From NCBI RefSeq assembly GCF_036321535.1, contig NC_087472.1:90770001-90834000 (forward strand): DNA of 64,000 bases. The letters are read 5' to 3'. The notes below the pieces were generated by a model. It had not been told where the DNA came from, did no database searches, and saw nothing but the letters and a program-made list of their open reading frames with translations. The position numbers and the translations under genes were made by a program. Within the stretch, counting starts at the first letter, position 1. Each line of letters opens with the position of its first letter. Shown here one piece after another: positions 10,441-62,449 of the stretch. This DNA is from Camelus dromedarius (Eukaryota).

Positions 10441-10710
<270 letters not shown>

Positions 10711-29064: not shown

Positions 29065-29313
<249 letters not shown>

Positions 29314-57853: not shown

Positions 57854-57985
57854 GAGGGAGGGAGGGAAGAGGCGAGGAAGAAAGAAAGGAAAGAGGGAGG
57901 GAGGGAGGGAGGGAGGAGGCGAGGAAGGAAGAAAGGAGGGAGGGAGGGAGGGAGGGAGAAAGGAGGGAGGAAGGGAAGAGGCGAT
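57854..57985 (+). repeat. Purine-rich (GGAG/GGAA)n low-complexity tract with three GAGGCGA motifs
   Basis: Directly visible. Confidence 0.9.
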
Positions 57986-57990
57986 CGCCT

Positions 57991-60886
57991 GCCTCTCTGC
58001 CTCTCTGCCTCTCTGCCTCTCTGCCTCTCTGCCTCTCTGCCTCTCTGCCTCTCTGCCTCTCTGCCTCTCTGCCTCTCTGCCTCTCTGCCTCTCTGCCTCT
58101 CTGCCTCTCTGCCTCTCTGCCTCTCTGCCTCTCTGCCTCTCTGCCTCTCTGCCTCTCTGCCTCTCTGCCTCTCTGCCTCTCTGCCTCTCTGCCTCTCTGC
58201 CTCTCTGCCTCTCTGCCTCTCTGCCTCTCTGCCTCTCTGCCTCTCTGCCTCTCTGCCTCTCTGCCTCTCTGCCTCTCTGCCTCTCTGCCTCTCTGCCTCT
58301 CTGCCTCTCTGCCTCTCTGCCTCTCTGCCTCTCTGCCTCTCTGCCTCTCTGCCTCTCTGCCTCTCTGCCTCTCTGCCTCTCTGCCTCTCTGCCTCTCTGC
58401 CTCTCTGCCTCTCTGCCTCTCTGCCTCTCTGCCTCTCTGCCTCTCTGCCTCTCTGCCTCTCTGCCTCTCTGCCTCTCTGCCTCTCTGCCTCTCTGCCTCT
58501 CTGCCTCTCTGCCTCTCTGCCTCTCTGCCTCTCTGCCTCTCTGCCTCTCTGCCTCTCTGCCTCTCTGCCTCTCTGCCTCTCTGCCTCTCTGCCTCTCTGC
58601 CTCTCTGCCTCTCTGCCTCTCTGCCTCTCTGCCTCTCTGCCTCTCTGCCTCTCTGCCTCTCTGCCTCTCTGCCTCTCTGCCTCTCTGCCTCTCTGCCTCT
58701 CTGCCTCTCTGCCTCTCTGCCTCTCTGCCTCTCTGCCTCTCTGCCTCTCTGCCTCTCTGCCTCTCTGCCTCTCTGCCTCTCTGCCTCTCTGCCTCTCTGC
58801 CTCTCTGCCTCTCTGCCTCTCTGCCTCTCTGCCTCTCTGCCTCTCTGCCTCTCTGCCTCTCTGCCTCTCTGCCTCTCTGCCTCTCTGCCTCTCTGCCTCT
58901 CTGCCTCTCTGCCTCTCTGCCTCTCTGCCTCTCTGCCTCTCTGCCTCTCTGCCTCTCTGCCTCTCTGCCTCTCTGCCTCTCTGCCTCTCTGCCTCTCTGC
59001 CTCTCTGCCTCTCTGCCTCTCTGCCTCTCTGCCTCTCTGCCTCTCTGCCTCTCTGCCTCTCTGCCTCTCTGCCTCTCTGCCTCTCTGCCTCTCTGCCTCT
59101 CTGCCTCTCTGCCTCTCTGCCTCTCTGCCTCTCTGCCTCTCTGCCTCTCTGCCTCTCTGCCTCTCTGCCTCTCTGCCTCTCTGCCTCTCTGCCTCTCTGC
59201 CTCTCTGCCTCTCTGCCTCTCTGCCTCTCTGCCTCTCTGCCTCTCTGCCTCTCTGCCTCTCTGCCTCTCTGCCTCTCTGCCTCTCTGCCTCTCTGCCTCT
59301 CTGCCTCTCTGCCTCTCTGCCTCTCTGCCTCTCTGCCTCTCTGCCTCTCTGCCTCTCTGCCTCTCTGCCTCTCTGCCTCTCTGCCTCTCTGCCTCTCTGC
59401 CTCTCTGCCTCTCTGCCTCTCTGCCTCTCTGCCTCTCTGCCTCTCTGCCTCTCTGCCTCTCTGCCTCTCTGCCTCTCTGCCTCTCTGCCTCTCTGCCTCT
59501 CTGCCTCTCTGCCTCTCTGCCTCTCTGCCTCTCTGCCTCTCTGCCTCTCTGCCTCTCTGCCTCTCTGCCTCTCTGCCTCTCTGCCTCTCTGCCTCTCTGC
59601 CTCTCTGCCTCTCTGCCTCTCTGCCTCTCTGCCTCTCTGCCTCTCTGCCTCTCTGCCTCTCTGCCTCTCTGCCTCTCTGCCTCTCTGCCTCTCTGCCTCT
59701 CTGCCTCTCTGCCTCTCTGCCTCTCTGCCTCTCTGCCTCTCTGCCTCTCTGCCTCTCTGCCTCTCTGCCTCTCTGCCTCTCTGCCTCTCTGCCTCTCTGC
59801 CTCTCTGCCTCTCTGCCTCTCTGCCTCTCTGCCTCTCTGCCTCTCTGCCTCTCTGCCTCTCTGCCTCTCTGCCTCTCTGCCTCTCTGCCTCTCTGCCTCT
59901 CTGCCTCTCTGCCTCTCTGCCTCTCTGCCTCTCTGCCTCTCTGCCTCTCTGCCTCTCTGCCTCTCTGCCTCTCTGCCTCTCTGCCTCTCTGCCTCTCTGC
60001 CTCTCTGCCTCTCTGCCTCTCTGCCTCTCTGCCTCTCTGCCTCTCTGCCTCTCTGCCTCTCTGCCTCTCTGCCTCTCTGCCTCTCTGCCTCTCTGCCTCT
60101 CTGCCTCTCTGCCTCTCTGCCTCTCTGCCTCTCTGCCTCTCTGCCTCTCTGCCTCTCTGCCTCTCTGCCTCTCTGCCTCTCTGCCTCTCTGCCTCTCTGC
60201 CTCTCTGCCTCTCTGCCTCTCTGCCTCTCTGCCTCTCTGCCTCTCTGCCTCTCTGCCTCTCTGCCTCTCTGCCTCTCTGCCTCTCTGCCTCTCTGCCTCT
60301 CTGCCTCTCTGCCTCTCTGCCTCTCTGCCTCTCTGCCTCTCTGCCTCTCTGCCTCTCTGCCTCTCTGCCTCTCTGCCTCTCTGCCTCTCTGCCTCTCTGC
60401 CTCTCTGCCTCTCTGCCTCTCTGCCTCTCTGCCTCTCTGCCTCTCTGCCTCTCTGCCTCTCTGCCTCTCTGCCTCTCTGCCTCTCTGCCTCTCTGCCTCT
60501 CTGCCTCTCTGCCTCTCTGCCTCTCTGCCTCTCTGCCTCTCTGCCTCTCTGCCTCTCTGCCTCTCTGCCTCTCTGCCTCTCTGCCTCTCTGCCTCTCTGC
60601 CTCTCTGCCTCTCTGCCTCTCTGCCTCTCTGCCTCTCTGCCTCTCTGCCTCTCTGCCTCTCTGCCTCTCTGCCTCTCTGCCTCTCTGCCTCTCTGCCTCT
60701 CTGCCTCTCTGCCTCTCTGCCTCTCTGCCTCTCTGCCTCTCTGCCTCTCTGCCTCTCTGCCTCTCTGCCTCTCTGCCTCTCTGCCTCTCTGCCTCTCTGC
60801 CTCTCTGCCTCTCTGCCTCTCTGCCTCTCTGCCTCTCTGCCTCTCTGCCTCTCTGCCTCTCTGCCTCTCTGCCTCTCTGCCTCTCT
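57991..60886 (+). repeat. (GCCTCTCT)n octamer tandem array, 362 units, 2896 bp
   Basis: The 8-bp period holds without visible variants; phase at 57991 and 60871 differs by exactly 360 units; partial GCCT units flank both ends. Confidence 0.97.
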
Positions 60887-60887
60887 G

Positions 60888-61189
60888 CCTGCCTCGAACC
60901 TACAACCTCCTGCTTACTAGTCCTAGCTCTCTACCCCTAACCTACAGGCTCTCACTAGCTACCTGAGTTTCCCCTCACTCACCTTTATCTCCTCAACTAA
61001 CAAACGGTGCTGAATTCCTAGTGCCTCAGCCTGGGTTGCACCTGAGGAACCAGGGACCCAGCATCCTCCTTCAGCTGTGGGAGATAAACCTGACTTGACT
61101 CGGGGAAACTGAGGTAGCTAGCGAGAGCCTGTAGCTCAGGGGCAGAGAGCATGGCTGGCAAGCAGGAGGTCCTAGGTTCAAGCCGCAGG
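60888..61189. other. ~300 bp imperfect inverted repeat (arms 60888-61029 and 61042-61189, 12-nt loop)
   Basis: Left arm gaacctacaacctcctgctt...ctacaggctctcactagctacctgagtttcccc...gtgcctcag aligns end to end with the reverse complement of the right arm gaacctaggacctcctgctt...ctacaggctctcgctagctacctcagtttcccc...gttcctcag. Confidence 0.92.
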
Positions 61190-61211
61190 GGAAGGACAGA
61201 GGAGAGTTTTT
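61132..61211 (+). promoter_or_regulatory. tRNA-Ala-like Pol III internal promoter (A box 61132-61142, B box 61175-61184) with TTTTT terminator 61207-61211
   Basis: TAGCTCAGGGG...GGTTCAAGCC. Ungapped 44/57 identity (hand count) to the head of the SINE at 4147-4243. Confidence 0.65.
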
Positions 61212-61559
61212 GCTGGAAGCAGAAAGCAAATTTCATTTTTACATGAGTGCAGTAAGTCCTACATACCTTCCTAAGTTGCTGTCTATACGTATGAACTTTC
61301 CCAAAAGGTCCCAATTAACTTATGGGCCTGATTTCCCCAACAGACTTCTCTGGACTTGATACACACTGATTCACCATTAGGATCAAAAGTTACATCTCAC
61401 CCATCCTTTTGCTCAGTCACAATGATCACAGGTAGACGGTTGGTGAATGCATAATTCTGGCCACTGTTTGACTTGACTTGCCATAATGCCACGTAGACCA
61501 GAACAGCCATCTGCTAGGTTTTCAGGTTGTAATTCTGCCCGTGGGTGTAGAGGTATGCC

Positions 61560-62415
61560 CGATAGTAATACCCAAAACACAAAGACTTAAGACAGTCCCT
61601 CCAAGTTGACTATCCAAAGTTGAATTAAGCCTAGATGAAAATAAAATGATAGAAGAATACAACCAAAATTGTAAGGATGTTTAAGATCCTCTAAGACATA
61701 CTTAAGGAAATACTATTTATTAAGATAACAAGAAATTAAGAAACAAAGCAATGAAGAACAGATGCATCTGAAAGCCATTTTTGGAAATAAGAACTATAAT
61801 CAGTGAAGCTACTGCACTCAAAGGACAAGATAAATTCTAGGCTGCACCCAGTCAAAGGAAATTAAAAGATGATTCTGAGGACTTTATATAATATTTAAAA
61901 AAACAGATAAACAGAAATCGGTAATAAAGAAAAATGGGGGAGTGACCACAAGGCTTGAAAATATACCTGGTAGAAGTTTCAGAAGAAGAGAATGGAGATG
62001 CAGAGAAGCAGTATGTGAAGCTGTAAGAGCTGAGAATCTTCCAGAACTGGAGTGATGTGAGCCTTTAAGGAAATGGTCTCCAGAGAGAAATTTTAAACAT
62101 CTGGGAAGGCCTGTGTAGAGCAATTGGTATTCTTTACAACTCAGCTTTGGGAAGCCCTGGCTGAGTTCAAATGTTATATTTTTCACAGGAAAACATAACA
62201 GAAATGCAGTGTGTTGTATATGCTTAAACCGTGGTTTCTAAACAAGGACACTTAGAAATAACTCAGTAAAGGAGAGCTGTGTGGAAGAACCTGACCCAGA
62301 GGAAGACCTCTCTAGAAAAGGTAGTCTCCTGTCAGTGACCCTGTGAAAAGCAGGCAGGAAGACAATAATCATTTGTTGTACTATCCTGAAGTCCATGTCT
62401 AAAGACACCGTTTTC

Positions 62416-62449
<34 letters not shown>

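What the first reader, a model, noticed from the sequence alone, without database searches (positions are those of the whole stretch)
60888..61189. 300-nt rod-like hairpin whose mismatches favour G-U pairs on the strand antisense to DMD
Seen by hand alignment: about 13 mismatches are A-C or C-A on the + strand and therefore G-U on the minus strand, versus about 4 that would be G-U on the + strand. The left arm is depleted of G relative to the reverse complement of the right arm. Neutral decay of a DNA inverted duplication should give no strand bias. Inference: the fold was maintained in a minus-strand RNA, or one arm underwent strand-specific C-to-U deamination (APOBEC-like) while single-stranded. 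A ~140-bp duplex could also be an ADAR or Dicer substrate.
Basis: partly seen in the sequence, partly recalled or inferred. Interest (0 to 1): 0.75.

Follow-up and report, generated by a model that had tools for sequence, protein, structure and literature searches.

The report
Inverted repeat hairpin in DMD intron
The 300-base hairpin is real, but it is two old copies of a SINE-related repeat lying head to head beside a long simple-repeat array in a dystrophin intron, and its lopsided mismatches look like mutation history and not a preserved RNA fold.

Summary
Window 60888-61189 folds as a rod. RNA MFE is -175.8 kcal/mol on + and -209.6 on -. Arm against arm gives 115 Watson-Crick pairs, 13 A-C/C-A and 4 G-U on +. 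Minus is antisense to the dystrophin-type gene.

The hairpin is not a fresh inverted duplication. Each arm is a ~145-nt repeat unit carrying the head of the genome's tRNA-Ala-like SINE, and the two arms belong to different subfamilies. It lies between a perfect (CTGCCTCT)363 array and a shared flank, in a block present five times in the genome. An older homologue has ~114 nt between the arms.

Outgroup polarisation assigns 10 of the 12 A(left):C(right) mismatches to G>A in the left arm. These are spread over at least four tree depths, and 3 are at CpG. Nothing supports a maintained fold:
- The five copies show 0 compensatory pairs of 128.
- Recent transitions are unbiased.
- The window copy folds weakest of the four X-linked copies.
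- The arms are no better conserved than the flank.

Shared transversions point to arm-to-arm DNA conversion. Verdict: an ordinary repeat-derived palindrome with a modest, unexplained G>A excess in one arm.

The parts
57854..57979 (+). purine-rich (GAGG/GGAA-type) repeat directly upstream of the pyrimidine array
   Evidence: Tandem Repeats Finder reports period 4 and period 47. Sequence read. The C10 paralogue also has a purine-rich repeat at this place.
57989..60890 (+). perfect octamer array (CTGCCTCT) x 362.8, the left boundary of the repeated block
   Evidence: TRF reports 100% matches and 0 indels. The same octamer array lies next to the hairpin in all four paralogues (192 to 2616 bp seen, two run off the fetched DNA).
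60888..61036 (+). left arm: repeat unit of the array-proximal subfamily, SINE-head-like part antisense on +, G-poor (20 G)
   Evidence: nhmmer with the unit profile matches 60888-61034 on + at E 4e-39. Family alignment. G>A polarisation.
61025..61048 (.). junction and loop: the last bases of the left unit's own 3' flank meet the end of the inverted right unit
   Evidence: Alignment with single units that keep the same 3' flank (L013, L002 unit at 910) and with the spacer-bearing homologue. MFE loop.
61037..61189 (-). right arm: repeat unit of the second subfamily, inverted. Its tRNA-Ala-like SINE head reads in sense on + (about 61120-61189).
   Evidence: nhmmer matches 61187-61039 on - at E 6e-41. 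It aligns to the heads of 8 copies of an abundant SINE, 7 of which ARAGORN calls tRNA-like (6 Ala, 1 Leu).
61190..61214 (+). short purine-rich leader of the right unit, followed by a run of five T
   Evidence: Read. Conserved in the five copies.
61215..61568 (+). shared flank 'X', part of the repeated block. Homology of the window copy to its paralogues ends at 61566-61568.
   Evidence: blastn of extended copies. The same flank follows single units elsewhere. No Pfam match for its short open frames.

Best explanation
The hairpin is a DNA palindrome of repeat origin, not an RNA gene.

Shown:
- Two members of a ~145-nt repeat unit lie tail to tail. Each unit is about 80 nt of unknown origin plus the ~65-nt head of the genome's tRNA-Ala-like SINE.
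- The left unit belongs to a subfamily that sits next to perfect pyrimidine octamer arrays. The right unit belongs to a second subfamily and is inverted.
- An older homologue keeps ~114 nt between the two units. In the lineage of the window copy this spacer is gone, which made the tight rod.
- The whole block (array, hairpin, flank) was then copied to five places.

Inferred:
- The arms exchanged sequence at the DNA level.
- The excess of mismatches that read G-U on the minus strand comes mainly from G>A transitions on the + strand of the left arm. They accumulated stepwise over a long time. Part are CpG decay, part are old subfamily differences and part are a so far unexplained raised G>A rate in that arm. 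Two further mismatches come from A>G changes in the right unit.
- As part of the dystrophin pre-mRNA, the + strand can fold into an imperfect ~116-bp duplex like any inverted SINE pair in an intron, most likely without function.
For: Repeat origin:
- The own genome holds four other full-length copies at 91-95% identity and many single arms at 72-88% (61 matches, 40 of 180 candidates scored; 42 matches, 40 of 374 scored).
- Both flanks are shared, so the hairpin is not an independent insert.
- I aligned 43 units from the 34 loci I searched. Left arms group with array-adjacent units and right arms with a second type.
- The SINE head is identified by alignment and by ARAGORN (7 of 8 SINE copies called tRNA-like).
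- The spacer-bearing homologue has its units at 1398-1543 and 1808-1658 of the fetched stretch.

Polarisation with 27 outgroup units:
- 10 of the 12 A:C sites are G>A in the left lineage: 3 in the window only, 1 in three copies, 2 in the four X copies, 2 in all five and 2 older. The other 2 of 12 are A>G in the right unit.

No sign of a maintained fold:
- 0 of 128 pairs changed on both sides. 10 pairs were kept one-sidedly and 14 were broken.
- Within the five-copy clade the left arm shows G>A 6 against C>T 5. All transitions together run 11 minus-friendly against 8 plus-friendly.
- MFE on -/+ is -209.6/-175.8 in the window copy and -215.2 to -225.5 / -183.9 to -193.7 in the other X copies.
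- Pairwise identity of the arms (0.89-1.00) is not above that of the flank.

Arm-to-arm exchange:
- Both arms share derived transversions found in 0 or 1 of the 27 outgroup units (columns 28 A>T, 119 T>G, 67 T>G, 61 C>G).
Against: The G>A excess of the left arm is more than the family average. It stands at 8 of 23 G against 45 of 621 in the 27 outgroup units (Fisher p 2e-4), and against 2 of 52 for C>T in the same arm (p 8e-4). Six of the ten G>A fall within 22 columns near the loop. In 954 flank columns only 5 G>A were seen at 163 G over two branches. So a local, strand- and arm-specific process is not excluded and chance alone is a weak account.

The 3-4 double changes that keep pairing are also what selection on a fold would give.

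The polarisation rests on a consensus of 27 diverged units and on a mosaic copy tree. The window copy groups with the C10 copy in part of the flank and with the X copies in the arms.

No RNA data were seen. The larger block is unidentified (no long ORF, no Pfam hit).
Confidence: 0.6

Rival explanations
1. A real, recurrent, strand-specific cytosine deamination hot spot. The G-rich minus strand of the array-proximal arm is often single-stranded, through an R-loop or non-B DNA seeded by the strongly skewed octamer array, or through hairpin extrusion. Its few C would then be deaminated, giving G>A (and G>C) on +.
For: - G>A at 8 of 23 G and G>C at 3 of 23 in the left arm, against 0-1 G>A and 0 G>C in the right units read in the same orientation.
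- The changes lie on several branches, so they recur.
- The left arm diverges faster than the right. Between the C37:100.25 Mb copy and the C10 copy there are 15 differences in the left arm and 6 in the right.
- Other array-adjacent units have lost 8-10 of 23 consensus G, against 2-5 in the units checked that lack an array. One array-adjacent unit has lost only 2.
Against: - There is no gradient towards the array. Six of the 10 G>A lie at the loop end, far from the array.
- Within the five-copy clade G>A 6 and C>T 5 are alike in number.
- The array-adjacent units are relatives, so their G loss is not independent evidence.
- No R-loop, replication or polymorphism data were available.
Confidence: 0.15
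2. Editing fixed by retro-copying. The unit or the block passed through RNA or cDNA, and APOBEC-type C>U editing of the first cDNA strand (G>A on the sense strand), or ADAR A>I editing of the folded RNA, was written into the new copy.
For: - There is a G>A excess on one strand of the left arm.
- Five of the 10 G>A have A as 3' neighbour (TC on the other strand) and 2 have G.
- The two A>G changes in the right unit would fit ADAR.
- G-to-A DNA editing of retroelements by APOBECs that then enters the genome is described in PMC4866542 (abstract seen in the listing).
Against: - The changes are spread over at least four tree depths, not one burst.
- Editing of a cDNA should mark the whole copy. The right arm has 52 G-equivalents on + and 1-2 G>A, and the flank shows 5 G>A at 163 G.
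- The GA share (5 of 10) is not significantly above the availability of GA among G sites (6-7 of 19-25 G).
- No poly(A) or target-site duplication bounds the block. The window copy's homology ends at 61568 without an A run.
Confidence: 0.1
3. A structured RNA transcribed from the minus strand (antisense to the dystrophin gene). Its rod is kept by selection, which tolerates G-U but removes A-C on that strand. It could be a Dicer or ADAR substrate.
For: - The minus strand folds 20-34 kcal/mol better than + in all five copies.
- It has 14 G-U pairs and a longest helix of 23, against 12 on +.
- 3-4 sites changed in both arms with pairing kept, relative to distant relatives.
- Among the five copies, transitions in predicted pairs run 10 kept against 5 of A-C type.
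Against: - Selection on a rod should tolerate C>U in both arms. The C-rich 5' arm of the minus RNA (about 52 C) shows 2 C>T against the consensus, while the other arm shows 8 at 23 sites. So the bias is arm-specific, not fold-specific.
- There are 0 compensatory pairs of 128 among the copies.
- The double changes are all transversions, as DNA conversion gives, and none is a transition pair.
- The window copy is the weakest fold of the X copies.
- There is no conservation above the flank and no Rfam family.
- The rod was created by a deletion between two old units.
Confidence: 0.07

Closest known systems
Inverted SINE pairs in introns (such as inverted Alu pairs, the usual long dsRNA and ADAR substrates of primate pre-mRNA; recalled, not from a call)
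   Same: Two copies of one SINE-related repeat in opposite orientation inside one transcription unit, folding into a long imperfect duplex.
   Different: The arms are not whole SINEs but a composite unit (SINE head plus ~80 nt). They abut with a 4-12-nt loop after a spacer deletion. The pair is part of a block copied five times. Editing was not examined.
SVA and LAVA composite retrotransposons of hominoids
   Same: The order of parts at one end is alike: a CT-rich simple-repeat array, then an antisense SINE-derived piece, then other sequence. [quoted passage not shown]
   Different: No VNTR, poly(A) tail or target-site duplication was found. The copies differ at the end away from the array. 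Those abstracts call such elements specific to hominoid primates. Mobility by retroposition is not shown here.
Arm-to-arm gene conversion in DNA palindromes (as described for sex-chromosome palindromes; recalled)
   Same: Both arms share derived states that other family members lack, and in three paralogues a 22-nt stretch is identical between the arms (read from the alignment).
   Different: The arms here are ~150 nt and only 76-80% alike, so any conversion was patchy and old.
APOBEC-edited retroelements (PMC4866542, abstract seen)
   Same: G>A excess on one strand relative to family relatives.
   Different: The changes are not clustered in time, are confined to one arm, and their motif preference is not significant.

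Membership tests
Inverted SINE pair forming intronic dsRNA | Two copies of the same repeat family in opposite orientation, close together | tested here: met
   The unit profile matches 60888-61034 (+) and 61187-61039 (-) at E 4e-39 and 6e-41. 43 family units were aligned.
Inverted SINE pair forming intronic dsRNA | Lies inside a transcription unit | tested here: met
   Dystrophin-type EF-hand_3 exon matches lie on + at window 10537-10701 and 29113-29211, and a CH exon lies 1.4 Mb upstream on +. The hairpin lies downstream of these with no exon match over it. Expression itself was not tested.
Inverted SINE pair forming intronic dsRNA | A-to-I editing or dsRNA seen in RNA data | not testable with these tools
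Structured non-coding RNA (hairpin RNA or miRNA-like) on the minus strand | Match to a described RNA family | tested here: not met
   cmscan of 60000-62000, both strands, E up to 1, gave 0 matches.
Structured non-coding RNA (hairpin RNA or miRNA-like) on the minus strand | Covariation that keeps pairs | tested here: inconclusive
   0 of 128 pairs are compensated among the five copies. 3-4 double transversions appear against distant relatives, which DNA conversion explains equally well.
Structured non-coding RNA (hairpin RNA or miRNA-like) on the minus strand | Conserved above its flanks | tested here: not met
   Arm identities of 0.89-1.00 are not above flank identities between the same copies. 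The window copy has 11 private changes in 302 nt of arms against 6 in 377 nt of flank.
APOBEC-hypermutated retro-copy | G>A excess on one strand against relatives | tested here: met
   Left arm G>A 8 of 23 against C>T 2 of 52. The family average for G>A is 45 of 621.
APOBEC-hypermutated retro-copy | Changes made in one event and over the whole copy | tested here: not met
   The ten G>A lie at at least four tree depths. The right arm and 954 flank columns lack the excess.
APOBEC-hypermutated retro-copy | Preferred dinucleotide context | tested here: inconclusive
   The 3' neighbours are A 5, G 2, C 2, T 1. GA makes up 6-7 of 19-25 G in the closest relatives.
SVA-like composite retrotransposon | CT-rich array followed by an antisense SINE-derived part | tested here: met
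   Octamer arrays lie directly before the unit in the window, its paralogues and 9 of the 13 single-unit loci shown. SINE head identity.
SVA-like composite retrotransposon | Poly(A) tail and target-site duplication at the ends | tested here: not met
   The ends of the block in the window and three paralogues show no A run or duplication. The ends of other family members could not be fetched.
MITE or foldback DNA transposon | The palindrome is itself the inserted unit, with its own flanks at each site | tested here: not met
   All five copies share the array on one side and flank X on the other.
tRNA gene | Cloverleaf detectable | tested here: not met
   ARAGORN finds 0 genes in 60000-62000 and in 6 family loci. 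Only the abundant SINE copies are called.

The most novel reading that the evidence does not exclude
The block belongs to a so far undescribed family outside the primates built like the 5' end of SVA: a perfect CT-rich octamer array, then an antisense SINE head, then unique sequence. In this reading the array-proximal unit is a germline hot spot where the G-rich strand is repeatedly deaminated while single-stranded, so the hairpin's one-sided G>A records a local, structure-driven mutation process.
Probability: 0.1. Interest if true: 0.6.

Novelty: new member of a known kind. Interest (0 to 1): 0.22.

Why it matters
As it stands it matters little. Long imperfect hairpins made by inverted SINE-related repeats are common in large introns, and this one shows no sign of selection.

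It is a useful caution. A G-U/A-C strand bias in a palindrome need not mean an RNA fold. Here it traces to one arm's substitution history and to arms that were never identical.

Two side issues could be worth a specialist's look. One is why G>A is several-fold raised in the array-proximal arm. The other is what the array-plus-SINE-head family is and how it spreads.

Tried and rejected
- RNA evidence. The look-up of sequencing runs listed 24 runs. Five runs on record as RNA hold 22-31% of the sampled words as contigs.
- Rfam. No match over 60000-62000. Two chance-level matches elsewhere in family loci.
- tRNA search of the hairpin and of 6 family loci found none.
- Coding potential of the shared flank and of the 3.6 kb that three paralogues share. 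Only ORFs of 70-131 aa were found. Two recurrent short frames gave 0 Pfam families at E up to 10.
- Transcription-coupled asymmetry of the host gene as the cause. The window outside the arrays has GC skew +2.3% and TA skew +4.3% on +. That is the direction I recall for a sense strand, and it is the opposite of the A+C excess in the hairpin. Most changes also predate the copy's arrival.
- CpG decay alone explains only 3 of the 10 G>A.
- Earlier notes of this scan held nothing for this place, sequence or these words.
- Homology of the window copy beyond 61568 does not resume in the remaining 2.4 kb.

Full report
**Observation.** Window 60888-61189 is a rod-like palindrome. The repeat finder reports arms of 49 nt (90% complementary) and 28 nt (82%). 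As RNA the + strand folds at -175.8 kcal/mol (shuffles -99.5 +/- 5.3, z -14.5) and the - strand at -209.6 (shuffles -113.2 +/- 5.2, z -18.4). In both cases 0 of 100 shuffles did as well. Aligning the stretch with its own reverse complement pairs 146 positions: 115 Watson-Crick, 4 G-U on +, 13 A-C/C-A on + and 14 others, of which 7 are C:C. Twelve of the 13 have A in the left arm and C in the right. The left arm has 20 G and the reverse complement of the right arm has 38. The bias of 13 against 4 has a two-sided binomial p of 0.049.

**Host gene.** The window lies at C37:90770001-90834000 of a 2.3-Gb assembly. Dystrophin-type EF-hand_3 exon matches lie in the window on + at 10537-10701 and 29113-29211. 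A CH-domain exon match lies 1.4 Mb upstream on +. Outside the arrays the window has GC skew +2.3% and TA skew +4.3% on +.

**What the arms are.** The own genome holds four more full-length copies of the hairpin: C37 at 100.25, 101.65 and 104.78 Mb, and C10 at 33.39 Mb, at 91-95% identity. It also holds many single arms of 100-150 nt at 72-88% and many 57-nt matches to the outer end of the right arm (61 matches, 40 of 180 candidates scored).
- The 57-nt matches are heads of an abundant SINE. ARAGORN of 8 fetched copies tRNA-like (6 Ala, 1 Leu), and the right arm aligns to them in sense on +.
- ARAGORN and Rfam find nothing in the hairpin itself.
- A profile of the arm finds 45 distinct units in the 34 loci I searched, and 43 were aligned.
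- Each unit is about 80 nt of unknown origin plus the ~65-nt SINE head.
- In the orientation of the left arm, the unit is preceded in the window, its paralogues and 9 of the 13 single-unit loci I displayed by perfect arrays of CT-rich octamers or decamers, and is followed by a conserved flank that I call X.
- In the window the array is (CTGCCTCT) x 362.8 with 100% matches.

**How the rod arose.** Left arms carry the states of the array-adjacent subfamily. Right arms carry those of a second subfamily that is closer to the SINE head. The same order of parts (array, unit, inverted unit, X) exists at C37:112.28 Mb, with a twin on C38. It is about 78% identical and has ~114 nt between the units. 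In the five-copy lineage that spacer is missing and the two units are 4-12 nt apart. The block was then copied. Three copies share 4.2-4.5 kb beyond the array, the window copy shares sequence only up to 61566-61568, and the copy at C37:104.78 Mb shares less. I found no long ORF, no Pfam match, no poly(A) and no target-site duplication. What the block is, and how it is copied, stays open.

**Polarising the mismatches.** I used 27 outgroup units. Five near-duplicates and the 11 units of the hairpin lineage itself (five left arms, five right arms and one extra right-arm copy) were left out.
- Ten of the 12 A(left):C(right) sites are G>A in the left-arm lineage, and 2 are A>G in the right unit.
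- The ten G>A lie at different depths: 3 only in the window copy (2 of them CpG), 1 in three copies, 2 in the four X copies, 2 in all five and 2 older.
- Against the family consensus the left arm has G>A 8, G>C 3 and C>T 2. The right arm, read in the same orientation, has G>A 1, C>G 5, A>G 3 and T>C 4. Total divergence is alike at 26 and 25 changes.
- G>A at 8 of 23 G differs from C>T at 2 of 52 C (Fisher p 8e-4) and from the family's 45 of 621 (p 2e-4).
- The 3' neighbours of the mutated G are A 5, G 2, C 2 and T 1, and three sites are CpG. GA makes up 6-7 of 19-25 G in the nearest relatives, so an APOBEC-type preference is not shown.
- In 954 gap-free flank columns, polarised by the distant homologue, the two branches between the X copies and the C10 copy carry G>A 5 and C>T 2.

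**Is the fold maintained?**
- Among the five copies RNAalifold predicts 128 pairs. None changed on both sides, 10 changed on one side and kept pairing on the minus strand, and 14 have a broken cell. Five of the broken cells are A-C and would be G-U on +.
- With outgroup polarity, the variable sites of the five-copy clade give G>A 6 and C>T 5 in the left arm. Over both arms there are 11 transitions that suit the minus strand and 8 that suit +.
- All copies fold better on minus, by 20-34 kcal/mol as RNA and 12-15 as DNA. The window copy is the weakest of the four X-linked copies on both strands.
- The window copy has 11 private changes in the 302 nt of the arms and 6 in 377 nt of flank.
- Arm identities between copies are not above flank identities, and the left arm diverges faster than the right.
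- These results speak against purifying selection on the rod, though five close copies give little power.

**Arm-to-arm exchange.** Both arms of the five-copy lineage share derived states against the family consensus at 10 columns. Four of these are transversions carried by 0 or 1 of the 27 outgroup units: A>T at column 28, T>G at 119, T>G at 67 and C>G at 61. In three paralogues a 22-nt stretch around columns 55-77 is identical between the arms (read). Identical transversions in both arms are what DNA conversion between palindrome arms gives. A fold under selection would be expected to show transition pairs through G-U intermediates, and none was seen. This is inference, and the data do not exclude selection.

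**Reading.** The asymmetry is real but modest. It is older than the window copy for 9 of its 12 main sites. It is specific to one arm rather than to one strand of the whole rod. That pattern fits substitution history in two arms that were never identical, with a raised G>A rate in the array-proximal arm that I cannot explain. A local single-strand deamination process next to the skewed array is possible, but it is not supported by any gradient, since six of the ten G>A lie at the loop end. Editing during retro-copying is weakened by the spread in time and by the clean right arm and flank. A selected minus-strand RNA is the least supported reading.

**Limits.**
- No RNA reads were laid, and the listing of runs is not evidence.
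- Family counts are lower bounds, because only 40 candidates were scored per search.
- The copy tree is mosaic.
- The consensus used for polarity comes from units about 80% alike.
- Names for SVA, APOBEC editing and related systems rest on abstracts seen in the search listings and otherwise on recall.
- The A-box and B-box reading of the SINE head, the expected sense-strand skews and palindrome gene conversion are all recalled.

Noticed in passing
window 57989-60890: A 2.9-kb array of 362.8 perfect copies of CTGCCTCT (100% matches, no indels). The paralogues carry the same octamer in differing lengths, and other family members carry perfect arrays of TACTCTCC, of a 10-mer and of CTGC. Such perfection over kilobases suggests very fast turnover or assembly smoothing.
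   Followed up: partly
window 57854-57979 and the junction at about 57980-57990: A purine-rich repeat (period 4 and 47) runs directly into the pyrimidine-rich array through a short palindromic junction. The C10 paralogue has a different purine-rich repeat at the same place.
   Followed up: no
L002 about 900-1300 (C37:101645633-101646030): Just upstream of the C37:101.65 Mb hairpin copy lies a second inverted pair. It is an older unit plus a 135-nt copy of the right arm that is 100% identical to the right arm of the C37:100.25 Mb copy. It is followed by only 192 bp of array. This points to a local rearrangement or partial duplication.
   Followed up: partly
window 61215-61568 and family loci (for example L015 1170-1331): On the minus strand, flank X carries recurrent short open frames shared among family members (54-58 aa) and a splice-donor-like site by eye. 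There is no Pfam match. It could be a relic exon of a multi-copy gene or nothing.
   Followed up: partly
window 62417-62447: A run of 31 A on + ends about 880 bp of sequence that begins where the window copy's homology to its paralogues stops (61568). It may be the tail of a retroposed insert, but homology to the paralogues does not resume after it.
   Followed up: partly
C37:112279692-112280102 and C38:18507225-18507635: The spacer-bearing homologue of the hairpin block exists as near-identical twins on C37 and C38. This would fit an X-Y shared region.
   Followed up: no
genome-wide: Family units cluster on a few contig stretches (C9 24-41 Mb, C3 62-95 Mb, C10 10-33 Mb, C17 16-26 Mb, C37 90-112 Mb) and are not spread evenly. 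This looks more like spread by segmental duplication than by free retroposition.
   Followed up: no
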